Source of the DNA: the human T2T-CHM13v2.0 reference genome, Homo sapiens
Assembly (NCBI RefSeq): GCF_009914755.1
Contig: NC_060935.1
Reading direction: 5' to 3' (one strand)
Length of the DNA: 64,000 nt
Both the position numbers and the translations under genes were made by a program. The notes below the pieces were generated by a model. The model was not told the origin of the DNA. It made no database searches and saw only the letters and a program-made list of their open reading frames with translations. Below are positions 1,182-39,800 of this stretch, piece after piece (within the stretch, counting starts at the first letter, position 1; each line of letters opens with the position of its first letter).

Positions 1182-3784
1182 ACTTGACCTGTCAGCAGGC
1201 CTCTGGCTGAGGGACCTCAGCCCCTAGACAGAACAGAAAAGCCTCTGCTTATGGCACAGAGGTTTACAAAACTCTCTGTTTAGACTGGTGTCCAAGTCAC
1301 AACTTGAGGGGACAGAAAGGTAGTTGCACCTCAGCTGGTCTTCTCTGAATGAATTATCCCTTGTCATAGGGGACTCTGTACAAATGCAGCCATAATTCTT
1401 GTCTATTGAAAAATTAAATCTTCAGAGCAAAGTTGTTTTGACATTGTTCTACAGATAACATTCAAAACCCTGCACAATCTCAATATTATAACAACAAAAC
1501 ACAAACAGGAAATAGAGACACAGACTCGTTTTTTTCTAATCGCAAATAGAAATTATCCTTGCTAATTACAAAGGCTTATAAAATTCCACTGGTGTTTACA
1601 CTTGGCTGACTGCTTCACTGGCAGCAGGAAGCAGTCTGATGTGGAGAGTTGGGTAGACCTTTGCTTCTGATGTCCAGAATCTAGGAATCTGAGCAATCAA
1701 AGCTAGAAACATTTGTGTCCTAAAATATGAGAGTGATCTTTATGGTTACCACATGACAGAAATGACCCACAATGGGACATAAGCTTCCATTTCTCCCTGA
1801 GTTTCTACCAAGGTAGTCTAATTGTCTATGATGAACTGGCATCTTATATTGCTGGTTTGTAGTTGGAATCTAAAAGAAAATTAGGTTAAGCCACAAGACA
1901 CTATTTTAATATGAGTTATATATAGTTTAATGTAAGCCTTATAAATATCATAGATTCATATTTTGTCCATTCTTAGAGAGTTGGCAGGAGATTTATAAAA
2001 AGAAATTTTATAAGTAAAATAAACAGAAAATACATCAATATAAAGAACTGATAGCATCATAAAATTAGAAAGGAAAAGAAATAATGAAGAGAGAAAGATC
2101 GAAAAAAACCCTGAATGACTTGATTGCCTATAAAACTATGTGTAAACTCTTCTATCTGGCATTGAAATTACCTCAAAAATTTGTTCCTTACTCCCCAAAC
2201 TAATTTTCTCCTTACTCTACTATGGGAAGATTTTGTTCCAGCCAAAACTGCTAATTAGCTAGCCACAAAAATGTGTCATGCTTTCCTTCTCTGCCTCCAT
2301 TATCTTCTTTGTGTATCCAAAGCCAAATCTTAACACTCCACTCCAATGCTATTTCTTTAACAAGCTTTGTGTGATCCTCCTGCTTCAGAATAAAAACCTA
2401 CTCCTCAGAGCACCTGAGGCATCTACTTTTAACGTGCTGTCATTTGTATCAGCTGTTTTAATATAAATCTTCTTCTTGTAAGGGCAGTTGCTACTTAGCT
2501 ACACCCTTTGGTCACCATCCAGGTGTTAGAGTCCATGCTGACAGATCTTCAGAGTTTTTAGAAAAGATCAATGTGAGATTTTTCTGTGATTTCCTTTATT
2601 ATTAAATGATGGTTTAATTTAAATAAAAATCACCACCATACAAGCTAAAATACATCTGCAGCACGACAGGATCCTTGGGTTTCCACTTTCAGACCTTTGT
2701 CATAGAGCATCATGTTTGCAGAAAGAAGGAAGAAAAAAAAAGAATTGAGTAAAAACTTCCTTTTCAAAGTCATATAGTCAATGCTTGTGTGTGATTCTGT
2801 TCCCAGGTATATAGAAATCAACCTACCCACCCATGGGTAGAAAATAGGTCTTAATATTTATTAGCTCTTCTAACCACATGGATCTTAATGGGCCATGTAA
2901 TAGGAAGTCCCAGCTGGGACCCGTGCAAGTCCTGTGTTTTATACAGAATGTAAACATCTGTCTAGTTGGAGAGAGAACACGCTCACTTTCTTTATGCCCC
3001 TCATTAACTTTCTGAGGTAGGGTTGATTGTTTCGGAACTTTTGGGTGAATGTGAATATTATACATGACAATTTCATTTATATAGTGTGTAATGTAATATG
3101 CCCGCATAGAGACTATCACATCATGCCTTTCAACCAATCCGCCTACATTTAATATATATTTGTGATATGTATGGCTCAGTGTTTGGTGGTGTAGGCAGAA
3201 ACACATAGGAAGAGGAGAAGACTTACATTAATTGAAAACCTAGTGTGTGCCAAGACATTTATTCTCTTCAACTCATTTTATAAACAGAAAACAGTTTAAG
3301 AATCTCAGATGTTTTGAATAGCATGGAAATATACACATTAAAAATAGTTGACAACACAACAGTGCATTGAATATCATATACCGTGGATGGTACAAATAGC
3401 ATGGATGACAGTAGCTTGCAGCAAGGGGACATTACCTTAGGCAGGATTGATCATGGAAAACTTCATGGAAGAGTTAAGCTTTGGAACTGACTTGGATGAG
3501 GCAATAGAAATAAATCCCCATTTGGCAGTGCAGTGGTTCTAAGAAGTTAGAGGAGATCATCTCTTTTTTCCTAAGAGCTATCTTCTTCAAATGATCGTGT
3601 AGTTTGAAATAATTTCCTAGAACCCAATACCACATTTTATAATGTAGAAAAAATACACATTCTTGAGTAAACTTTAAATTGTTCATATATATGTATATGT
3701 GTAATATACATATACATTTATAGATAATCTGTTCTTCTAATTCTTTTTTAAAGTAAATAAAGAATAAACTAAAAATTAAAAGTT

Positions 3785-4201
3785 CCCTCCCACTGCATGA
3801 TATTTGGCCTGTGTGATCTAATAATGTACGATGGAAGTGATGATGAGTGACCTTTGATCCTGGGTCATAAAGGGAATTGTGACTCCCTTCTAGCATCATA
3901 AAAGGCATTACAGCGTCCACCTTGGTCTCTGGGATCACGCATTAAGGGAAAAGCTATCCATTATGTCATAAGGACTCTTAAGTAGCTCATGTTAATTGAA
4001 TACCTCCTATGTGCCAAGAACTGAGGCCTCCCACCAAGGGCCAGCACTAACTTGCCAGACATGTGTATGAGCCACCGTGTTAGTAGATTCTCCACCTCTG
4101 GAGGAAGGTTTCAGATGGCCACAGCCCCAGCTGGCACCTTGACTGCTTTGGATGCCCCGAGTAAGAACTGCTTAGCTAAGCTGCTCCTGAATTCCTAACC
4201 C
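3785..4201 (+). mobile_element. MaLR LTR, MLT1E/F-like fragment
   Basis: 'aactgaggcctc...gccagcactaacttgccag...ttcagatggccacagccccagctggcaccttgactgc...agctaagctgctcctgaattcctaaccc'. Confidence 0.75.
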
Positions 4202-5302
4202 CTTCTTCTAGAACTTGAAATGAGGTCCTAAAGCACTTGCACAGAAGAGCCACAAAAACCTCAGATAGGGGGCAAGAGAAAGAGGATGGAAGAGCTATTA
4301 AAATTATTTGTTTCTTCACAGTCTTTCCCAGAAATATCTCTGAAATCACATGAGTCTTGGAGGGAGGCTTTGTCCCCTTCCTCTCCTCTGAGTAACTCGT
4401 TGTAGAGCCCAACAGTGCAAGATGTAGGATAATAGGAGGGATTATTTCCAGGGAGTACCAGTAATGATACTGAGCATGAAAATAGTTAAACAGGACAAAA
4501 GAAATACCTCAAACAGATCAATTGGGCAGAGAGCTGATGTACATATAAAAGAATTCCCATCTGGAAACCAGAGGGTTGAAGTTCTGAAGAAAACTTCAGG
4601 GCCCCAGCCAGACAGTGTCTGTCATGCAAAAGGCCTCAGTGATGGAAGGAACAGGAAATGTCATCAAAAACTAATGAGACTGTCAAGTTTCAGCTAGAAT
4701 TAGATAAAAGCCTGCTTCACTTGCAGGGGACAGTCCTAGTTAGAAGATGAGGAGCCAGAACAAAGCTTGAAGAATTGGATGTTTAAGATAGATTTTTAAA
4801 TCTCCTCTTATTCACCTATGCCTTCTATACTACATTTAAGGACAATAACTTCAAAGTACTCAGCAACCCAGAATAGTTGGCATTTCTCTTTGGGGAATGA
4901 CTATTTTAAAAAGGCACCTGGAACCTCCCATTTCAAGGGGGAAAGATCACATACAACTTGAGAAACTGGTGCCCGTATAGGGACAAATTGGGGAAGATAA
5001 TATCAAAGAGAAACAAATGGGAGTTTACATATGCGTGTGTGTGAATTTGACCTGAATATCAGCTTTGCTTTCTAAGCATGCTTGAAAATGTTTGTGGTAA
5101 AAGGATCAGGTGTAAACTTCTTGTTATATATTTTCTTAACATTTCAGATTAAAAGACACATACATGTTCAATCTACTACCTTTGGAATTATCCAATAACC
5201 ACACCAATTTCCTATATAGGACTGAATTTTTCCTAGTCATAAGATGAAGAATGCAAATAGATCATTTACTAGAGGAATGTTAATAGGGCATGTTTCTTCC
5301 TC

Positions 5303-5588
5303 TTTTTTGAGACAGAGTCTCATTCTGTCACCCAGGCTGGAGTATAGTGGCATGATCTCGGCTCACTGCAAATTCAGCCTCCAGTTTCAGGCAATTATTG
5401 TGCCTCAGCCTCCCCATTAGCTGGGACTATAGATGCATGCCACCATGCCCAGATAGTTTTTGTATTCTTTGTAGAGACAGGATTTCACCGTGTTGGCCAG
5501 GGTGGTCACAAACTCCTGGCCTGAAGTGATCCACCTGCCTTGAGCCCCAAAGTGCTGGGATTACAGGTGTGAGCCATTGTGCCTGGCC
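5303..5588 (-). mobile_element. Alu, older AluS (Sz-like)
   Basis: Full dimer in antisense with a short T tract. CATGTTTCTTC occurs on both sides (TSD). Confidence 0.95.
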
Positions 5589-6864
5589 GGCCATGTTTCT
5601 TCTTTTACAATTTGCCTATAAATAGACCACATGACCACATGCTCTCTTAAGGTATTGATGTGCTCATGTTTTATGTACACACACACACACACACCCCTCA
5701 CAGACACATCAGATTTTCATACTAAAAAATCAAGTTTGGAGGAAATTTTAAATTTTAGGCTAGGTTAGATACTACTTGAAATTTTGAAGGGTATTTTAAA
5801 CTCTCCATATACATCCCTGGGGTAAAGCAGTGACAGGGGCCACATTTGCCTTTCTTTGATGCCCTTGGGTCCTCCTTCTGCATCCACAGCTTTCTTCTCT
5901 GTCCTGCATCTCACTCCTCCTGGATACTTTCTATTACTGGTTTCCTCATTAGGACATCTCTGCATTTACAAAGCCCTCTTCTCCCATCAGAAAAAAATTG
6001 TTCTGATCCATCACTACAACTGTTTTTGTTGGAGGCGTAAATTTTCATTTTTTTGAAATTTCCTGTGTCGTATTTGTTGTAGCATGAAGAAAATGCAGTT
6101 GAGGCTTCTCTCCAGTTGCACCTTTTACCACGAAGGCTTATAAATAATATTTTGAAATTCATTTTCTTCCTCTCTTCTTTGTACCAATGATTGAAGTCTT
6201 TTTTCTGGCCATCGTCATCTCTCACCTAGATATGATAATAGCTTCTAAATTTGTCTCCATGACTCTAGACTCTGCTTTCCTTAAATCTGTCTTAGCCCAA
6301 CAGGGTAATCATTGTAAGACTCAAGTCTGATTATGATATTCCCTCAGTTAACATCTTCTGTTATTCCTCATTACCTACATTATAAATACAAACAAAATAC
6401 CTTAATATACAAGGCCTTTTACAGCCTGTTCCCAGCCTACTCTCCCAGACTCATCTTCCTTGACTCCTCATAGCCTCAGCTCTCTCTGTCTTCCCTTGGT
6501 TTCCAGATACTTGAAAGACTCTCCCAACCTTTAAGACATCCTTTGTTCTACAATATACTCAGTTTTTAACTCCAGATATAGATACTGCATTCAGATATAG
6601 AAAAATATGAAAAAATAAAAACTAGATCCCTCCTCTATTTTATATGCCCTGACTCATAGTACCATAGATTGTAGCCATCTCAGAACTGGCAGCAATCCCT
6701 TTGCCAAGTAAGAAAGAGTAACTTTATCAGGTGACTATTATACTATTAATTGATACATTTTCCTCTCATTCTCCTCCTCTGTCACAATTCTAAATTCATA
6801 TATACAAAGTTTCAGTGAAGAACTGGAAAGAAAGCACATGGAGAAGATCACAAAAGTGGACACG

Positions 6865-29699: not shown

Positions 29700-30135
29700 T
29701 GTATCAGTCAAATGCTGGTGTGTAACAAACACATCAAACACAATTTATTAGTTCCTGACTCAATGAGTAAGCAATTTGGACTCATCTCAGTTGAGCAGCT
29801 CTATTTGTCTTGCCTGGGTTCATTCATGTGATTACAGTTGGCTTGTGAATCATACAAGCATTGACTTATCCTGGATAGCCTTATTCATATCTGGCTTTTG
29901 GATGGGTGAATAACATACATGTCTCCAGCAGACTTACTCAAGCATTTTCACACACAACAGTAAGTCCCAATGCACAAGCACTTTTCAAGCTTCTGCTTGC
30001 ATTATGTTTGCTAATATCCCATTAGCCAAAGCAAGTCACAAGGTCAAATGCAGATTTAAGAGGTGAAGATGAATACTCCATCACTAGATAAAATATGCTG
30101 TCAAACGCTATGGCCATTTAAAAAATTTACAACAT
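29700..30135 (-). mobile_element. MLT1 (H/I-like) LTR
   Basis: 'caagcacttttcaagcttctgcttgc...tcccattagccaaagcaagtcaca'. Confidence 0.75.
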
Positions 30136-31056
30136 CATCTCTGTTTTCCAACATAGTAAACAAATTTAACAACCTTGTACCTCTTTCTATGTAAGCATCT
30201 TTCTATTCTTAGGGGAGAATCCCATGTCTCTATTATGAGACAACTATTATGAGACAATTCACATACAATTCTCAGAGCATGGAATATGGCGGGCAGCAGG
30301 GGCCATGACTTTGAGCTGGATCAGAAGAGGGTGCTTTGTTATTTACTCTGCAAATTCCCTTTCCTGCTTTTTACTCTGGGAAATTTGTATTATGAATAAA
30401 ACTCTATTTTGCTTTATTTATTTCACTTCTGTTGCATCAGTAAAATCCACACCTGTTTGTTCTGGCATTGAGAGCAGCTGTCTGGTCTGCAGTAATATTT
30501 CCCACCTGGGTGGCTGAGCTGTCTCTCAGTGGCAGACACCCTTGTCAGCGTTGGTGGAAAAAGAGTTGCTTGGCTAATTTGGGTGCTTCCCTTTGGGCTT
30601 AGTGAAACAGGACAAAACAGGAAGTGTTTGATTCCCAAATTCGTGCCATGAGAAGTTTCCCAAGACACACTGGGTGAGAACAGAGCCAAAGAGAAGGTGG
30701 TGTGTGATACAAAGAGACGACAATAATGGTTGTGAAATATAGGGTAGACAGCAGAATATATTCCAAGGGATTTTGATTGTGTCATGGTAACCATGTGAGC
30801 AAAGCCTCTGTGGTTTATAAAATGGCTAATACCTGATATATGTGAATAAATTGAGATATTATTTTCCTATATTAGACTCTTTGTAGTTGTATCACTGTTA
30901 TATCAAACACACTGTGTATATATGTACATATACATACATATGTACCCACAGACATATTGATTGGAGTTGCAATAATACTAAGGGACTCAGCAGTCGAGTT
31001 TTCCCAGCATTGTGTTAGCGTTGAGGAAAAAACCCATCTCTTAAAGAGTGAGGGGA

Positions 31057-31341
31057 GGCCCAGCGCGGTGGCTTATGCCTGTAATTCCAGCACTTTGGGA
31101 GGCCGAGGCAGGCGGATCATGAGGTCAGGAGATCGAGACCATCCTGGCTAACACAATGAAACCCCATCTCTACTAAAAATACAAAAAATAGCTGGGCGTG
31201 GTGGCGGGCGCCTGTAGTCCCAGCTACTTGGGAGGCTGAGGCAGGAGAATGGCGTGAACCCGGGAGGCAGGGCTTGCAGTGAGCCGAGATAGTGCCACTG
31301 GGTGACAGAACAAGACTCCTTCTCCAAAAAAAAAAAAAAAA
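31057..31341 (+). mobile_element. AluY with a 12-bp right-arm deletion
   Basis: AluY diagnostics. 'gccactg|ggtgacag' lacks cactccagcctg. Perfect TSD AAAGAGTGAGGGGA at 31043-31056 and 31339-31352. Confidence 0.96.
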
Positions 31342-32149
31342 GAGTGAGGGGAAACAGGAAGGTTTTTGAGGTAATACGCTGTTTAAACAGAGGTTTCTGT
31401 GGTTGGATAGATGGCACTGAAGGAGATGTGACAAAGAAACAGTGGTAAATAGGTTCTAGAGTTGGAGAAAGTCAGGACCCCAGGATGTAATGAAAGCTGA
31501 GCTTTATACATAGTTTCCTATTTTCTTGACCTAGTTGAGAACCTCTTGAAACTTTCTATTTAGTCGTTAGTTTCTCTGCCCAGGTATATTTCAGACCCTC
31601 AGTTTAACCTCAGGCACATGACCTTACATAGTTTGTTGATAAATCTTTGTAATTACTGCCCTTTATTTGACAGGTTGTTGTATTCAAATTGCTTGGTCAA
31701 TTTTTAAATATTTCAAGAACTTTGAGGTAATCAGTTTGCCTAAAACGCTAATATATTAGTTTTGCTTTTTTTTTTTTTTTTTTTTTTTTCAAATAGTCAA
31801 CAGAAAACAAAGTTGGAATGAGCTTCCTAAAGAAAAGCTAATTTTCTGCACTGGAAGTAATTGAATTTAAAAAAAAAAAGTAACATTCAAAATATCAGAA
31901 TATTCACATGATTCAAGCATTGAGTAGAAAGTTAGATTAAATATCCTTTAAAAGTTATACCAAAAGTGGTAGTCTGTTATCCACTTGCAAGTTAATGTGG
32001 AAAGAACAGGAATTTTAGACTCAAACAGATCAAAATTGAAACTTCCCCTCTGCTATTAATGGGAAAAAATAGCAGGACTTGGAGAGTGATTCAATATGGA
32101 AAGGCACCAAGGACTGTGCTTCAGTTTCTAATTTGGGAGCTAGGTGGCA

Positions 32150-32930
32150 ATTAGACATTACAAATTCAGCATGTTCAACATAGGAATCCTGGTCTTCTCT
32201 CCACAGTTTGCTCTAGACTCAGTTTTTGTCATCTAAGCTGAAGTCAAATCTATCTTTCTAGTTGCTTAAGTCAAAATACCTGGAAGTCATTTTGACTCCT
32301 CTCCTTTTTCTACATCCTGTATCTAATAAATCAAGTAATTCTTCTACCACTACTTTCAAAATAGATCCATAATCCAACTATTTCAATAGACACCTCTATT
32401 GGTACCACTATGATTTTAGCCATTTTCAGCTCTCCCAAGGATACTGAAATGGCCTCATAACAGATCTCTCTGCTCCTACATTTGATTTGTGCAATTTAAT
32501 CTCAAGCCAGCAGCCAGATTATTGTAAAATTTAAAACAACTCATGTGACTCTTTTCTAACTCTTGCAAAGGCTCTGTATTAAACTGTAGTAAAACCCAAA
32601 GTACTTAAGAAGGTCCTGCCCCCCACCAAGCTCTGTAAACCTCTCCTACTGCTTGTTTACCTTGCCACCTTGTTTACCATGCCACACATCACAGTAGCCT
32701 CCTTTGTATTTGCTAAATGCATCAGGCATGTTCAACAGCAGACTTGGTTACAGCTTTTCCTCTGCTCAACTATTCCTTCCCCCAACCCCTCCCAGATATC
32801 TACTCAGTAACTTTCCAACCTCTTTCAGATTTTTTCTCAGATTTAATCTTCTTAGTGAACCCTCAGTGAGGAATATTGCCACCCTCGCTATCCTCACCCC
32901 AACCAGACTACATCTTCAACACTCTTGATC
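32150..32930 (+). mobile_element. L2 remnant
   Basis: 'caaattcagcatgttcaa...gtcattttgactcctctc...tttcaaaatagatcc...cagcagccaga'. Confidence 0.7.
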
Positions 32931-33916
32931 ACTCTGCTTTTAAGCCCTTATTTTAATCATTGTTTTCTTTTTAACCCTTGTTTGTCAGTGCTATTACTTT
33001 ATTCTTTTATGATGGGGAATATTTTAATCAACTTTACTGAAGTATAATTTCCATTATATAAAACAAACATATGTTAAGTATACCATTTGAAGTTTTGAGA
33101 AATGTAGTTACTTGTGCACCCGTTGTCATAACCATGATAAGAACGTGTGGATCAACTAAGAAAGTTCCCAAATACCTCTAAGCAGTCAAACCTCACCCCT
33201 ATTCATGGCAACTATTTATTACTTATTTGGTCTCTATTCGTTTCATCCATCCTAGATTTTTGTATAAATTGAATCATACACCATATTTATTTTGTGTCTG
33301 TGTTATTTCAATCAGCATAAATTTTTGAGATGTATCTGTGTTCTCACATGTATCAGTTGTTTGATACTTGTTATTGCTAGTTATATTCTATCGTATTAAT
33401 TTTCCACAATTTGTTTTTCCATTTACTTGAAATTTTTCATTTCCATTGAATTAGCATTCTGGTTGTTTCTAGTTCTAAACTATTATGAATAAAGTTGCTG
33501 TGGACAATTTTGTGAGGTCTTAATGTGGATATAAGATTTCATTTCTCTTGAGTAAGTATTGAGAGGTAGTATTGATAAGTTATATGGGAAAAGTGTAGCT
33601 AATGTTACCAAAAAATGCCATATTATTTTTGGAAGTCATTGAGTAAATTTTCACCCTCATCAGCAATGTATGAGTATTGGTTGTTTTACATCTTTAACAA
33701 CACTTGGTATTGCTAATATTTTTAATTCTAAGCATTCTAGTGAGTATGAGACACTACCTTATAGTGGGTTTAATTTGTATTTCATAGTCATTAACTATGT
33801 TGTGCTTCTTTTCAGGGAATTAATGTCCATTTTACACTGTTTTTGTGACGTATCTTTCAAATATTTTGTGCATTTTTTGTGTTGTCTATCTTCATATTAT
33901 TAAATAGTAAAAGTGT

Positions 33917-34363
33917 TGTGATGGTTAATACTGAGTGTCAACTTGATTGGATTGAAAGATACAAAGTATTGATCCTGGGTGTGTCTGGGAGGGTGTTGCA
34001 AAAGAGTTTAACATTTGAGTCAGTGGGCTGGGAAAGGCAGACCCATCCTTAACTTGGGTGGGCACCTTCTAATCACCTGTCAGCCCGGCCAGCATATAAG
34101 CAGGCAGAAAAATGTGAAAAGAGAGACTGGCCTAGCCTCCCAGCCTACATCTTTCTCCTGCACTGGATGCTTCCTACCCTCAAACATTGGGCTCCAAGTT
34201 CTTCAGTTTTAAAACTCAGACTGGCTGTCCTTGCTCCTCAGCCTGCAGACGACCTATTGTGGAATCTTGTGATTGTGTGAATTAATACTTAATAAACTCC
34301 CCTTCGTGTGTATATATATATATTCCATTAGTTCTGTCTCTCTAGAGAACCCTGACTAATACA
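33917..34363 (+). mobile_element. MLT2A (ERVL) solo LTR
   Basis: Termini 'tgtgatggttaatactgagtgtcaacttgattggattg' and 'ctagagaaccctgactaataca'. Internal (TA)n. Confidence 0.95.
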
Positions 34364-34983
34364 GGTACTTTATATATTTGTGTACCAGTGTTTAATCACT
34401 GGTATACAAATATGTGTCCACATAAGTATATATATCATGTATTATAGATGGAAAACATTTTGTCCCAGTCTATGGCTTGCTTTTTTTTCTCTCCTCAAGG
34501 ATGTCATTTGAGGGGCAGAAATTTTTAACTTTAATGGAATTCAATGTATCCTTTTTAAAAATAGTTAATGCTTTCTGTTTCATCTTTTAAAAAAATCTTT
34601 GCCTAACACAAGTTGTAAAGATTTTCTCTTATATTCTCTTCGAAAGATGTATAATTTTAACTTTTATATTTAGGTGTATGTTACTTTTAAAGTTAAGTTT
34701 TGTGCAGAATGTGAGACAGGGATCCAAGTTTGTTTTTCATACAAGTATCAGTTTGACAGCATGATTTGTTGAAAAAACTATACTTTCACCATTAAAATTT
34801 GTTAGCACCTTTGTCAATCAATTGACCCTGTATGTGTGGATTTATTCTTAGATTCCTTATTTTTTTTTCCACTGATTCAGCTTTACACCCATGTAAGACT
34901 GTCTTGATGGCCTTAAAATCACAGCTTAACTTCCCTTTCTTTCTTTCTTTTTCAAAATTTTGTTAGCTATTGTGAAGTCTATA

Positions 34984-35225
34984 AGCTATACTTTTCCCAT
35001 ATAACTTACCAATACTACCCCTCGATACTTACTCAAGAGAAATGAAAACTTATATCCACATTAAGACCTCTACAAAATTGTCCACAGCAACTTTAATCAT
35101 AATAGTTTTGAACTAGAAACAACCAGAATGCTAATTCAATGGAAATGAAAAATTTCAAGTAAATGGAAAAAACAAATTGTGGAAAATTAATACAATAGAA
35201 TATAATTAGCAATAACAAGTATCAA
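34984..35225 (+). repeat. Inverted duplicate of 33361-33600
   Basis: Manual alignment shows 11 differences in ~242 nt (~95%). Flanked by direct repeat TGAAGTCTATAAG. Confidence 0.95.
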
Positions 35226-35794
35226 GTTGAAGTCTATAAGAGAAATTAACAAATTCGTTTATACATTTTAGAAGTTGGTTGTATTCCTCAGAATTTTCTA
35301 CAGCGTTAATCATGTAATATATGAATAGAGACTGATGTACATCTTCCTGTCCTAACAATGCTTTTCTACTTCTTTTTCCTATTTTATTACATTTCCAGTA
35401 AAATGTTTAATAAAAATGGTAAAATATTTAATAAAAATGGTGACAATAATTCTCCATTATTCAATTCTTCATTATTGAGTGTATTACCTGTTGTTATTTC
35501 TTTAAATGCTGTTTATCAATTTAAATACGTTTCTGTTTCTAGTTTGCTTAAAGTTTTTATCATGAATGGGTATTGAATTGGAGACGATTATTTGAATATA
35601 ATAGTTCTGTTATGGCAGTTAATTGCATTGAGTGATTTTAGAATATTGAATGAACCTCGGGTTGTTGAGATCAATTGCACCAAGTCATGATGCATGCTCC
35701 TTTTATATTTATGTTTATTTTATGGTCCAGCATATGGCTTATCTCAATGAACATTCCCTATAAGATTAAAATGTTTTAGTTTTTGTGTTTAATC

Positions 35795-36104
35795 TTTTTT
35801 TTTTTTTTTTTTTTTTTTTTTGAGACGGAGTCTCGCTCTGCTGCCCAGGCTGGAGTACAGTGGCACGATCTCGGCTCACTGAAACCTCTGCCTCAGAGGT
35901 TCCAGTGATTCTCCTGCCTCAGCTTCCCAAGTAGCTGGGATTACAGGCACCCACCACCATGCCTGGCTAATTGTTGTATTTTTAGTAGAGACAGGGTTTC
36001 ACCATGTTAATCCGGCTGGTGTGTGGAACTCCTGACGTCAGGTGATCCGCAGGTCTCGGCCTCCCAAAGTGCTGGGATTACAGGCATGAGCCACCGTGCC
36101 CGGC
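35795..36104 (-). mobile_element. AluSx-like
   Basis: Long T tract plus antisense dimer. Perfect TSD GTGTTTAATCTTTT at 35785-35798 and 36105-36118. Confidence 0.96.
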
Positions 36105-37124
36105 GTGTTTAATCTTTTATAAATAGTCACGTTACTGAGAGTGTTGTTTAAATATTTTACATCTTTACTGATTTTTTTATCTACTTTTTCATTAAATACT
36201 AAAAGAAGGGTGCTAAAATCTTCATCTATGTTTGTAGATTTATCTAGTTCTCTCATTAAGCCTGTGAAATTTACTTGATAATTGTAATGGGGTGTATTCC
36301 TATTTTGAATTGTTTTGTCTTTTTGATAAATTTATTTATCATTATAAAATGTCCTTTTTTAATCTCTTGTGCTAATCTTCATTTTATAATCTACTGCTGG
36401 TATTAATAGAAACACCATGCCAGTTCTTTTTTAATGTATCTATGCCATTATATTTTAAGTGGATCTGTCATAGACAGCATATAGTTCAGTCTTGCTCTTT
36501 TATTACATCTGACTTTTTTCATTTTATTTATTCTTAGTCCATTTACATTTGATGTAACCATCAACATCGTAGTGCTTAAGTTGCCATGTTGGTACTTATT
36601 TTTCACTTGTCCCTTCATATTTCTTCTTATTTTTTTGCCCCTTCTTGACTTCCTTAGGTTAATCAATTTTTTGTTTGTTTTTCGTTTCATTTTCTGTACT
36701 TGTTTTGGTGTTTCCTCATTTTATTATTTGCCTTGGGGCTCACAGTTTGCATTCCTAACTTACTGAAGGCCATTCAGAGTAAATATTATTTACCACTTCA
36801 CATTTCACACTTTACACTTGACACTGTATGATTTCCACTTATTACTGCACACTTCCCACTTAAATAGTATACTTCTATTTATCCACTACACTTCATTTTT
36901 GATATATTGAAGTTATATCTTTTCCTTCTCTATCTGTTACAAAATCTGTCTTACCAATATTGTTCTTTCTGCTTTAAACAATCACCTTTTAAATAGATTA
37001 CTAGGACAAAATGTCATTTACATCGACTTGCTTGTCATGTTCTGTGTTCTTCATTTCTTCCTATAGATCTAATTCTCTTACTAGTAACTATTTTCCATGG
37101 TTACTGATAAAAAATCAGTAATCT

Positions 37125-39800
37125 CTGGGTCTGTAGTTTTCTCATGTTTTATCTGGTTTTGGTATTAGGGGAATGCTGGCTTCATAGAATGAGTTAGGAA
37201 ACATTCCCTCTTCTTCTCTCTCTGAAAGAGATTGTAGAGAATTAGTGTAATTTATTCCTTAATATTCAGTATAGAATTTATCGGTGAACCCATCTAGGCT
37301 TGGTGCTTTTTGTCTGGTAGATTGTTAAGGATTGATTCAATTACTTTAATACATATATAGTCCTATTTAAACTATTTCTTTTTGTGTGAGTTTTGGCAGA
37401 TTGAGTCTTTCTAGAAATTGTTCCATTTCATATAAGTTACCAAATTTGTGAGCATAAAGCTGTTCATGTTATTCATTTATTATCTTTTCAATGTCCATGG
37501 AATCTTTCAGGATATTCCACGTTTTATTTCTAATAATTAGTAATTTGTATTCTCTCTGTTTTTTTTAGTTAGCTTGGATAGAGGCTTATCAATTTTATTT
37601 ATCTTTTCAAAGAACCAGCTTTTGGTTTTGTTGGTTTTCCTTTATTGATTTCCCATTTTCAATTTCATTGATTTCTGTACTATTTTTTATTATTTATTTT
37701 GTTCTTGACCCTTTTATTATCATTTTGTATCCCTCTGTATCCCTGATAACTTTGTTTTCCTTATTCTAAAATTTTGATTTTTAGTATTAATATTTCTGAA
37801 ATTAATATAGCCACTCCCGGTTTTTGAATTAGTGTTAGCATGGCATATCTTTATCAATTTACTTTTAATATATATGTGCCTTTATATTTAAACTGGGTTT
37901 CTTGTAGATAACATATTATTGTGTTTTCTTTTTTGATCCACTTTGAGAATTTCTGTTTTTTATTCATTTATTAAACCATTACTGTTCAAAGTGATTATTG
38001 ATATAATTTGATTAATATCTACCATATTTGCTACTGTTTTTCATTTGTTGCTCTTTTTCTTTGTTCCTATGTTTGTCTTTCACTCTTATTCTGCCTTTGG
38101 TGATTTTAATTGAGAATTTTGTTATTGTTGTTGTTGTTTCAATTATTTTTCTTTTTGCTTTTCATGTTTGGAGGTTTCTATTCAGATATCCTCAAGCTCA
38201 GAAAGTCTTCCTCAGTTGCGTCCAATCTACTAGCAAGACCATCAGTGGTAGTCTTCATTTCTGTTACAGCATTTTTTTTTCTCTAGCATCTCTTTTTGGT
38301 TCTTAGAATCTTTATAACATCTCTCTGCTTACATTGCCCATCTGTTATTGAATGCTGTGTACTTGATTCATTAGAAACCTTATCATATTAATGAAAGCTT
38401 TTTTAAATTTCCAATTTGATGATTGCAATATTCCTGATATCTCTGAGGCTGCTTCTGATGCTTGTTCTGTCTCTTGAAGCTCTGTGTGTTTTTGTGTTAT
38501 TGTTGTTGGTAGTGGTTGTTTTTCTTTTGGCATTTAGTATGTCTTGGAATCCTTTTTGACTGTCAGACATGATGTACTGGGTAATAGGAACTGCTATGAA
38601 TAGGTCTTTATTAATGTGGTGATAAAGTATGGGGAAGAGGAAGCACTATATAGTTCTGTAGTTAGGCCTCAGTCTTTTGGTAAGCCTGTGCCCCTGAACT
38701 ATGAGCTTCACAAGGGCTTAGTTTTTTTCACTCCATAGTTGGGACAGAATAGGTAGAATGAACTGAAATGGGTATTTTTCTGCTTCTAAGTAGAATGAAA
38801 AAGCCACCTGGAATTGAGTACTTCTCTTCCTCCAAGTCAGTTCCGGTCTGATAAAACCCAGCAGGTCCGGCTCTCATTAAATATTGTCTCCTGAGTTCAG
38901 ACCTCGCTAACAACAAGATGTTCTGGCATATTTTAAAATGGTTCCTTTTCTTCTCTCCCTGGCAGAAACAGGAGATTTTTCTCCAGTATGTACTGAAAAA
39001 TATTCGTCAAGCTTCTGAAAGTAAAACAAAAGAGCAGGAGTCTGCTTATGACTGGGTCTCCCTGGAGTTTTTCCCCACTCAGTCGCTTCCACAGTGAGCC
39101 TCCAGCAGTTTGTCAATGACAGTTTAGGTTTTCCTACCTCACCTGGGCACTGTTTTCTGCAAAGGTTTCTACTTGTGAGTTTCTACTCTGGTAAGTTGGG
39201 ATTCTCTGGACTCATCTGTCTCTCCAGTTTGGAAGGCAGCAATTTTCCCTGTGACCTCACTTATCTTCCATATCTAAGAACAGTTTTTGATTTTCAGTTT
39301 GTTCAGCATTTCGCTTGTTGTTTGGACAGAGTGGCAACCTCTAAGATCCTTACGCGGCTGACCAGAAACCATTAACAATCATTTGTACCGTTTTTCCCCT
39401 TTGTGCAGTTTTGTTGTATTTTTGTTGTTGTTTTTCTGCTGCTTCTGTAATTTTATTTTTTCGGTAATTTTTTGTTTTCGGTAGTTTGAGTATAATTTCC
39501 CTAGAAACAGCCTTCTTGTATTTATCCTGGGCAGAGGGAGAGTCCAAAGTCCGTGGCAGGTTTTCTGTGAGTTCTTGGCTATGGGTTCACCCACACTTCA
39601 GCTCCCTCCCTCCTCTCCAGTGTCCTGCCTGCAGACTTTATCCACTTCAGTTGCCCTCACATTGATTTCTGTCTCCTTATGTGAATAGTACTTCTACACT
39701 CTGTTTTGATTCTACGTTACTAAGCCACAATAAGAAACATTCCTGAGGCAGAGATTCTGGGTAATAAGGAGACTCTGTAGTTAGTTTCTCTGCTCTCAGA
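37125..39800 (-). mobile_element. Old L1M ORF2/ORF1/5'-region remnants (probably several fragments)
   Basis: 'ggttttggtattaggg..atgctggcttcatagaatgagttagg', 'ttttcaaagaaccagctttt'. ORF1-like ISREIILKL at 39350-39547. Confidence 0.75.

What the first reader, a model, noticed from the sequence alone, without database searches (positions are those of the whole stretch)
33361..35240. 240-bp inverted templated insertion with a 13-bp target-site-like duplication and no poly(A)
Seen: 34984-35225 is the reverse complement of 33361-33600 (11 differences in ~242 nt). It is bracketed by TGAAGTCTATAAG at 34973-34985 and 35228-35240, and the left junction shares AG (AT(A/T)AGCT) with the donor. There is no A-tail. 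The ~95% identity is far above what two independent ancient L1M copies would show, so this is a local copy from 1.4 kb away. The host L1M also appears to skip several hundred bases at this point. Inference: a staggered break repaired by template switching to nearby DNA, or by reverse transcription of a local nascent RNA. If transcribed, the pair would form a ~240-bp non-Alu dsRNA stem looping out the MLT2A LTR.
Basis: partly seen in the sequence, partly recalled or inferred. Interest (0 to 1): 0.72.

Follow-up and report, generated by a model that had tools for sequence, protein, structure and literature searches.

The report
Inverted local copy inside old L1
A 243-base stretch of an ancient L1 element was copied backwards into the same element 1.4 kb away, most likely by a DNA-copying slip during replication or break repair roughly 10-40 million years ago; it is a clean but ordinary example of a known kind of mutation.

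Summary
Window 34981-35225 is the reverse complement of 33361-33603, with 233 of 245 columns identical. It is bracketed by an exact 13-mer at 34973-34985 and 35228-35240. There is a 2-nt filler and no A-tail.

In the whole genome the next best match is 81% over 93 nt, so the copy is local. The donor sits collinear in a minus-strand L1. The copy is inverted and out of place.

About 390 L1 consensus positions are missing at the insertion site, within roughly 25 nt. The site lacks the marks of L1 endonuclease and reverse transcription. An Alu 560 bp away shows all of them.

Best reading: a DNA-templated template switch of the FoSTeS/MMBIR or fold-back repair type. It probably produced the deletion, the inverted copy and the 13-bp duplication together.

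The event is younger than the LTR between the arms. I estimate its age at roughly 16-19 My (using recalled rates).

The arms could form a 243-bp RNA duplex. Whether they are transcribed or edited was not testable.

This is a known kind of mutation that is unusually long and long-range. Interest is low to moderate.

The parts
33361..33603 (-). Donor arm. A native piece of the host L1 (antisense on the + strand), matching positions about 5370-5600 of an intact L1 used as a ruler (L047).
   Evidence: Window 33200-33916 aligns collinearly to L047 5089-5626 (nhmmer). tblastn places ORF2 aa 1140-1231 here on the minus strand.
33347..33372 (.). Small palindrome (10-nt arms, 6-nt loop) at the donor's left end. 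Copying stops in its loop, at 33361.
   Evidence: Read. The DNA fold of 33340-33380 gives a hairpin of -4.6 kcal/mol. A role in ending the copy is inference.
33917..34363 (+). Solo LTR-like dispersed repeat lying between the arms.
   Evidence: All 39 other scored places in the genome match at 86-90%; 38 of them reach to within 10 nt of both ends of the 447-nt query (one starts at position 7). 4146 candidates were found and 40 scored.
34364..34972 (-). Host L1 segment A. It matches L047 from about 4446 to about 5010, ORF2 aa about 855-1046.
   Evidence: nhmmer: window 34874 corresponds to L047 4573. The profile of 21 L1 copies aligns from window 34974 at node 511. tblastn finds aa 946-1046 at 34434-34736.
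34973..34985 (.). Left copy of the exact 13-mer TGAAGTCTATAAG. Its last 5 nt overlap the donor homology in 4 of 5 positions.
   Evidence: (D17).
34986..35225 (+). Inverted templated copy of the donor. The homology can be traced from 34981.
   Evidence: 95.1% over 245 columns. It is the best match in the genome by a wide margin. It aligns to ORF2 aa 1169-1231 on the + strand, opposite to the host L1.
35226..35227 (.). Two filler bases (GT), matching neither the donor nor the target.
   Evidence: Junction strings.
35228..35240 (.). Right copy of the exact 13-mer.
   Evidence: D17.
35241..35704 (-). Host L1 segment B. It matches L047 from about 3548 to about 4055, ORF2 aa 556 to about 724. About 390 consensus positions between segments A and B are absent.
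   Evidence: nhmmer: window 35290 corresponds to L047 4014. The profile alignment ends at window 35252, node 123. tblastn finds aa 556-674 at 35390-35704 and nothing for aa 675-945 in 30000-39000.
35785..36118 (-). Internal control, not part of the event. A minus-strand Alu with a T-run and a 14-bp target-site duplication, GTGTTTAATCTTTT.
   Evidence: (D14). The implied nick is TTTT/AT.

Best explanation
This is a DNA-templated template switch during replication or break repair, of the FoSTeS/MMBIR or fold-back synthesis kind.

A + strand 3' end that finished in ...ATAAG at 34985 left its template. It paired with CTAAT at 33599-33603 on the + strand 1.37 kb behind it. That stretch could have been exposed as lagging-strand template, or as the end's own resected tail folded back.

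The end was extended for about 240 nt, as far as 33361, which lies in the loop of a small palindrome. It was then released. It was rejoined, with two extra bases, 13 nt upstream of where it had left, and this re-copied the 13-mer.

The loss of about 390 L1 positions at the same spot is most simply part of the same event: either a further switch from the same stalled site or resection of the break.

Shown here: the local inverted copy, the direction of copying, the junction sequences and the co-located deletion. Inferred: the enzymology, the order of the switches, and that it was one event rather than two. The confidence given is for a DNA-templated local switch; that the deletion belongs to the same event I hold at about 0.5.
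For: - The copy is local. Identity to the donor is 95% over the full length, against 83% or less over 190 nt or less for the other 38 scored places.
- The donor is collinear in its L1, while the copy is inverted and displaced.
- The left junction has 2 nt of exact microhomology (AG), or 5 nt with one mismatch. The right junction has a 2-nt filler. Passages of PMC8421209 describe both features for MMBIR-type templated insertions.
- In the four-point model this event has point 4 upstream of point 1. PMC7954356 reports such events (passages).
- The only large internal loss seen in this L1's ORF2 lies within about 25 nt of the insert. A serial-switch or resection model explains that. A clean target-site duplication does not.
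- None of the L1 endonuclease or reverse-transcription marks are present, although an Alu 560 bp away shows all of them.
- Polarising the differences with 13 outgroup L1 sequences puts about 5-6 changes on the donor lineage, 3 on the copy and 2 ambiguous. The junction-overlap mismatch at 34983 is not counted. This fits a faithful copy followed by neutral decay of both arms.
Against: - The right junction has no microhomology and two extra bases. That looks more like end joining than annealing-primed synthesis.
- The template is 1.37 kb away and the copied stretch is about 243 nt. Both lie outside the ranges in the surveys I read. Templates there lie within 100 bp (PMC8421209), and the copied stretch has a median of 12 nt and a maximum of 128 nt (PMC7954356). 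Those limits are partly set by the search designs.
- A 13-bp flanking duplication is also what a staggered cut filled in on both sides would give.
- I could not place the 13-mer's native position in the L1. Against shuffles the z-scores were 1.6 and 0.9, and other L1 places score as well. So the link between deletion and insertion rests on about 25-nt resolution and is post hoc.
- No ancestral (empty-site) sequence was available.
Confidence: 0.7

Rival explanations
1. Two separate events. An older internal deletion of the L1 came first. Later, a staggered double-strand break with 13-nt overhangs, filled in on both ends, was patched with a copy of nearby DNA, made by synthesis-dependent repair or captured as a free fragment.
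For: The exact 13-bp duplication directly abuts the insert on both sides. The filler bases at the right junction are typical of end joining. Passages of PMC5110952 describe break patches with microhomology and non-templated bases.
Against: It needs the break to fall within about 25 nt of the only large deletion seen in about 3.8 kb of ORF2. I estimate that chance at about 2%. The class 2 patches described in PMC5110952 lack flanking duplications. I know of no nuclease that gives 13-nt staggers apart from L1 endonuclease, and its site preference is not met here.
Confidence: 0.15
2. Reverse transcription of a local RNA at a nick or break. The enzyme could be L1 ORF2p or another reverse transcriptase. 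The template could be the + strand primary transcript of LINC02742, in whose intron the locus lies. The primer would be the + strand 3' end ...ATAAG, pairing with CUAAU in the RNA.
For: A 13-bp duplication is within the usual range of L1 target-site duplications; that range is recalled and comes from no call. According to the hub's annotation, the sense needed for priming from 34985 is the sense of LINC02742. PMC5110952 reports that break patches were enriched for transcribed sequences and reduced by reverse-transcriptase inhibitors (passages).
Against: There is no A-tail, and no AATAAA near either end of the insert. The implied nick sites are TTCA/CA or TAAG/AG, against TTTT/A (consensus as given in PMC5110952). 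The Alu 560 bp away shows what a real event of this kind looks like here. A donor 1.4 kb away on the same molecule is what DNA template switching predicts, not what trans RNA capture predicts. Target deletion together with a flanking duplication is not the usual outcome of this route.
Confidence: 0.1
3. An ancient structure kept similar by gene conversion. This would be an old inverted L1 piece, from twin priming when the L1 inserted or from a second L1 insertion, whose arms were later homogenised.
For: Inverted repeats can undergo gene conversion; this is general knowledge and comes from no call. If so, the age estimate would be only a minimum.
Against: L1 sense sequence continues on both sides of the inverted piece, with ORF2 aa 1 to about 724 beyond it. 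The piece is therefore not at the 5' end, as twin priming would require. It is not a 3'-terminal L1 fragment and has no A-tail. The exact 13-mer flanks would be unexplained. Homology ends sharply at both borders.
Confidence: 0.03
4. Assembly artefact.
For: None found.
Against: The arms differ at 12 positions. By outgroup comparison, changes have built up on both arms. The junctions are clean.
Confidence: 0.01

Closest known systems
Template-switch mutations under the four-point model (Loytynoja and Goldman; Walker et al. 2021, PMC7954356; passages read)
   Same: An inverted copy of nearby sequence is inserted in one step and creates an inverted repeat. Events in which the return point precedes the departure point are reported, and these give a short duplication.
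   Different: Here the copied stretch is about 243 nt, against a median of 12 and a maximum of 128 in their gold-standard set. The template is 1.37 kb away, against tens to hundreds of nt. The event is also accompanied by a loss of about 390 bp.
MMBIR-type templated insertions (MMB-TI; Osia et al. 2021, PMC8421209; passages read)
   Same: These are inverted copies of a nearby template with microhomology or 'microhomeology' at the junctions. Several consecutive switches can make up one event, and such events persist as germline variants.
   Different: Their search covers only templates within 100 bp and insert sizes up to read length. One junction here has a filler and no microhomology.
Small inverted triplications, DUP/INV/DUP (Lei et al. 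2026, PMC13334657; passages read)
   Same: The layout is two flanking direct duplications around a central inverted fragment. Flank sizes range from 7 bp to over 10 kb, and the inverted fragment has a median of 160 bp. The authors attribute them to replication template switching or fold-back.
   Different: The flank here is only 13 bp. The spacer to the template is about 1.37 kb, against a median of 30 bp. Those events were described in cancer genomes and a yeast mutant, not as a fixed germline event.
Templated sequence insertion polymorphisms, classes 1 and 2 (Onozawa and Aplan 2016, PMC5110952; passages read)
   Same: A copy of genomic sequence is inserted while the donor stays intact. A flanking duplication is the class 1 trait. 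Microhomology and extra bases are class 2 traits.
   Different: The donor here is local, not distant. The event lacks the poly(A), polyadenylation signal and TTTT/A site of class 1, and has the duplication that class 2 lacks. It fits neither class.

Membership tests
L1 ORF2p-mediated insertion (TPRT; class 1 templated insertion) | Flanking target-site duplication of at least 5 bp | tested here: met
   Exact 13-mer on both sides (D17).
L1 ORF2p-mediated insertion (TPRT; class 1 templated insertion) | Poly(A) tail at the 3' end of the insert, with a polyadenylation signal upstream | tested here: not met
   Neither end has an A- or T-run, and no AATAAA lies near either end. The neighbouring Alu has a T-run.
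L1 ORF2p-mediated insertion (TPRT; class 1 templated insertion) | Nick at a 5'-TTTT/A-3' type site | tested here: not met
   The implied nick sites are TTCA/CA or TAAG/AG, depending on orientation. The Alu control gives TTTT/AT. The consensus is as quoted in PMC5110952.
Class 2 templated insertion (break patch) | No flanking duplication; microhomology, small deletion or non-templated bases at the junctions | tested here: not met
   Microhomology and a 2-nt filler are present, but so is a 13-bp duplication.
Template-switch mutation / MMBIR templated insertion | The insert is the reverse complement of nearby sequence on the same chromosome, and the donor is retained | tested here: met
Template-switch mutation / MMBIR templated insertion | Microhomology or microhomeology at the switch junctions | tested here: inconclusive
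   The left junction has AG exact, or 4 of 5 positions. The right junction has none, plus a 2-nt filler.
Template-switch mutation / MMBIR templated insertion | Template within the same fork or within about 100 bp, and a short copied stretch | tested here: not met
   The distance is 1.37 kb and the copied length about 243 nt. Those limits are set by the published searches, not by the mechanism.
Template-switch mutation / MMBIR templated insertion | The ancestral sequence shows the change arose in one step | not testable with these tools
   No primate orthologues or other human assemblies are held.
L1 twin-priming inversion | The inverted segment forms the 5' end of the L1 insertion and adjoins the sense part in L1 coordinates | tested here: not met
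   Sense L1 (ORF2 aa 1 to about 724) continues beyond the inverted piece. The piece is ORF2 aa 1169-1231, set between about aa 855 and about aa 724.
Small inverted triplication (DUP/INV/DUP) | Two direct flanking duplications, a central inverted fragment and a short spacer (median 30 bp) | tested here: inconclusive
   The layout is met (13 / 243 / 13). The spacer to the template is 1369-1377 nt.

The most novel reading that the evidence does not exclude
The copy was made from RNA. In this reading, a germline break or nick in the L1 was repaired using the nascent + strand transcript of the surrounding lncRNA intron as template. The RNA would have been reverse-transcribed from an internal microhomology without any poly(A). 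That would make this a fixed example of local RNA-templated repair, one that also built a 243-bp non-Alu double-stranded RNA stem into the same transcript.
Probability: 0.1. Interest if true: 0.6.

Novelty: new member of a known kind. Interest (0 to 1): 0.25.

Why it matters
This is a well-resolved, fixed example of a long, kilobase-range template switch: about 243 nt copied from 1.37 kb away, with a flanking 13-bp duplication and a co-located deletion.

Events of this size fall outside the search windows of the surveys I read. This locus hints that such events are under-counted.

It also shows how repair can build a long, near-perfect inverted repeat that is not made of Alu elements. The longest perfect run is 62 bp, and the predicted RNA duplex is -359 kcal/mol. 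If the surrounding lncRNA intron is transcribed, that repeat could be a substrate for RNA editing or double-stranded RNA sensing.

No gene, exon or annotated regulatory element is touched, according to the hub's table. The biological consequence is probably nil.

Tried and rejected
- A Pfam family recalled for the L1 ORF2 tail (PF08333) is not in the library. I used RVT_1 instead to find an intact L1 as a ruler.
- Sizing the L1 skip from individual old L1 copies gave inconsistent values, from none to several hundred bp. Those copies carry their own insertions and deletions. I replaced this with an intact-L1 ruler and a 21-copy profile.
- I tried to decide whether the 13-mer is native to the A side, the B side or the deleted part of the L1. 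By eye it fits three places at about 10 of 13 positions. The shuffle test was not significant: z = 1.6 with 21 of 300 shuffles as good, and z = 0.9 with 55 of 300. Other places score as well. I therefore dropped a detailed switch-by-switch reconstruction.
- The idea that the GT filler plus TG was copied from the palindrome loop (GTTG) rests on 4 nt and was not pursued.
- Rfam found no RNA family in 32500-36500 at gathering thresholds.
- The LINC02742 literature search found 6 papers. I saw only the listing, and no title concerned this locus.
- No primate orthologues, other human assemblies, RNA-seq or editing data are reachable with these tools. Dating by an empty site, polymorphism and A-to-I editing therefore remain untested.

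Full report
**What is there.** The window is human chr11 (T2T-CHM13), inside the span of the + strand lncRNA LINC02742 with none of its exons (hub table). The repeat finder reports three adjoining inverted-repeat pieces between 33361-33603 and 34981-35225. It also reports an exact 13-nt direct repeat, TGAAGTCTATAAG, at 34973-34985 and 35228-35240. A gapped alignment joins the pieces into 245 columns with 233 matches, 10 mismatches and two 1-nt gaps, or 95.1%. The last five bases of the left 13-mer (ATAAG) overlap the donor homology (ATTAG). At the other end two bases (GT, 35226-35227) match neither donor nor target. Neither end has an A- or T-run.

**Is it more than chance?** Across the whole window, exact 13-mers repeated at spacings of 150-399 occurred in 86 of 15,928,125 tests. 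Most of these fall in two low-complexity runs. The only one at spacing 255 is this pair.

**Is it local?** I searched the whole genome with the copy. Of 284 candidates, 40 were scored. These were the site itself (100%), the donor 1.4 kb away (95% over 1-242) and 38 others at 69-83% over 70-190 nt. The best of those by score was 81% over 93 nt. The flanking L1 pieces likewise have no close relative elsewhere. The 39 other scored matches to the piece before the insert are 66-78% identical, and those to the piece after it are 70-90% over 47-176 nt. This is a copy of the neighbouring sequence, not a second independent L1.

**Host element and direction of copying.**
- I took one L1 copy with an open 1283-codon frame as a ruler (locus L047, ORF2 at 1882-5709).
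- tblastn puts the host L1 on the minus strand. ORF2 aa 1219-1231 lie at 33383-33421, aa 1140-1186 at 33534-33674 and aa 946-1046 at 34434-34736. Further on, aa 556-674 lie at 35390-35704, aa 333-532 at 37127-37714 and aa 1 at 38025.
- The copy matches aa 1169-1231 on the opposite strand.
- nhmmer shows 33200-33916 collinear with L047 5089-5626.
- The 33361-33603 arm is therefore native, and the 34986-35225 arm is the displaced, inverted copy.

**The LTR between the arms.** A discrete dispersed repeat lies at 33917-34363. All 39 other scored places match it at 86-90%, nearly all over its full length.

**The deletion at the same spot.**
- On the ruler, window 34874 corresponds to L047 4573 and window 35290 to L047 4014.
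- A profile built from 21 rows, 6 of which span the whole interval, aligns the B side up to window 35252 (node 123). It aligns the A side from window 34974 (node 511).
- About 390 consensus positions (ORF2 aa about 724-855) are therefore replaced by the insert, its two 13-mers and about 11 further nt. The six spanning copies all contain the missing stretch.
- No other large internal loss of ORF2 showed up.
- I tried to decide where the 13-mer is native. By eye it fits three L1 places at about 10 of 13 positions. The shuffle test is not significant, and other places score as well. That question stays open.

**Age.**
- Excluding the junction overlap, there are 6 transitions and 3 transversions in 238 sites, giving K2P = 0.039.
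- With substitution rates of 1.0-1.2 x 10^-9 per site per year, this gives about 16-19 My. The rates are recalled and come from no call. Plausible rates give a range of 9-39 My.
- The LTR copies differ by 10-14% from this one, and L1 copies by 24-35%. The duplication is therefore younger than both, and the LTR already lay between donor and target when the event happened (inference).
- I polarised the differences with 13 outgroup L1 sequences. About 5-6 changes fall on the donor lineage, 3 on the copy and 2 are ambiguous. The junction-overlap mismatch at 34983 is not counted. The copy carries no excess of errors, and both arms have decayed since.

**Mechanism.**
- New + strand sequence after 34985 is the complement of the + strand at 33603 to 33361. 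A + strand 3' end ...ATAAG therefore paired with CTAAT (33599-33603) and was extended on the + strand behind it.
- That is what happens when a leading-strand end switches to the lagging-strand template, or when a resected 3' tail folds back on itself.
- Copying ends in the loop of a small palindrome at 33347-33372 (-4.6 kcal/mol as DNA).
- The end then returns 13 nt upstream of its departure point, with two extra bases. In the four-point description the order of points is 3-2-4-1. Events with point 4 before point 1 are reported in great apes (PMC7954356, passages).
- Consecutive switches, microhomeology and persistence as germline variants are described for MMBIR-type templated insertions (PMC8421209, passages).
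- A DUP/INV/DUP layout with flanks from 7 bp upward is described for small inverted triplications (PMC13334657, passages).
- The co-located loss of about 390 bp fits a further switch from the same stalled site, or resection of a break. I favour one complex event, but two events are not excluded.

**Why not retrotransposition?**
- PMC5110952 (passages) lists the marks of L1 ORF2p-made insertions: a target-site duplication, a poly(A) tail behind a polyadenylation signal, and a TTTT/A target.
- Only the first mark is present here. The implied nick sites are TTCA/CA or TAAG/AG.
- A minus-strand Alu at 35799-36104, about 560 bp from the insert, serves as an internal control. It has a long T-run and a 14-bp duplication at 35785-35798 and 36105-36118. 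Its implied nick is TTTT/AT.
- An RNA template is not excluded. The + strand sense of LINC02742 is the sense that priming from 34985 would need. The 1.4-kb proximity and the deletion speak for DNA.

**Consequences.** As RNA, the two arms co-fold at -359 kcal/mol, against -77 +/- 4.5 for 20 shuffles. 233 of 243 donor bases are paired, and the longest perfect run is 62 bp. The loop would be 1377 nt and would contain the LTR. Whether the stretch is transcribed or edited could not be tested. Rfam finds no known RNA family here.

**Verdict.** The event belongs to a known kind of mutation, template switching in replication or repair, but it is longer and longer-range than those in the surveys I read. 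No annotated function is affected.

Noticed in passing
window 35785-36118: A minus-strand Alu with a T-run of about 24 nt and a 14-bp target-site duplication (GTGTTTAATCTTTT). The implied nick is TTTT/AT. It is a textbook L1-mediated insertion inside the same old L1 and served as a control.
   Followed up: yes
window 35398-35439: A 21-bp tandem duplication, 95% identical (D8), inside the L1 reverse-transcriptase region. It is probably replication slippage.
   Followed up: no
window 32652-32685: A 17-bp tandem duplication, 94% identical (D10).
   Followed up: no
window 36119-37126: About 1 kb separates L1 ORF2 aa 556 (35704) from aa 532 (37127). The Alu accounts for only about 330 bp of it, so another inserted sequence probably lies here.
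   Followed up: no
window 34741-34756 and 35215-35230: A 16-nt direct repeat, 88% identical (D13), links the end of the inverted copy to a place 230 bp upstream of the insertion site. A related 18-nt match (D11) links 33341-33358 to 34736-53. Whether these guided a switch or are chance is unknown.
   Followed up: partly
window 33917-34363: Copies of the LTR-like repeat between the arms are only 10-14% different from this one. This repeat is therefore much younger than the L1 it sits in.
   Followed up: partly
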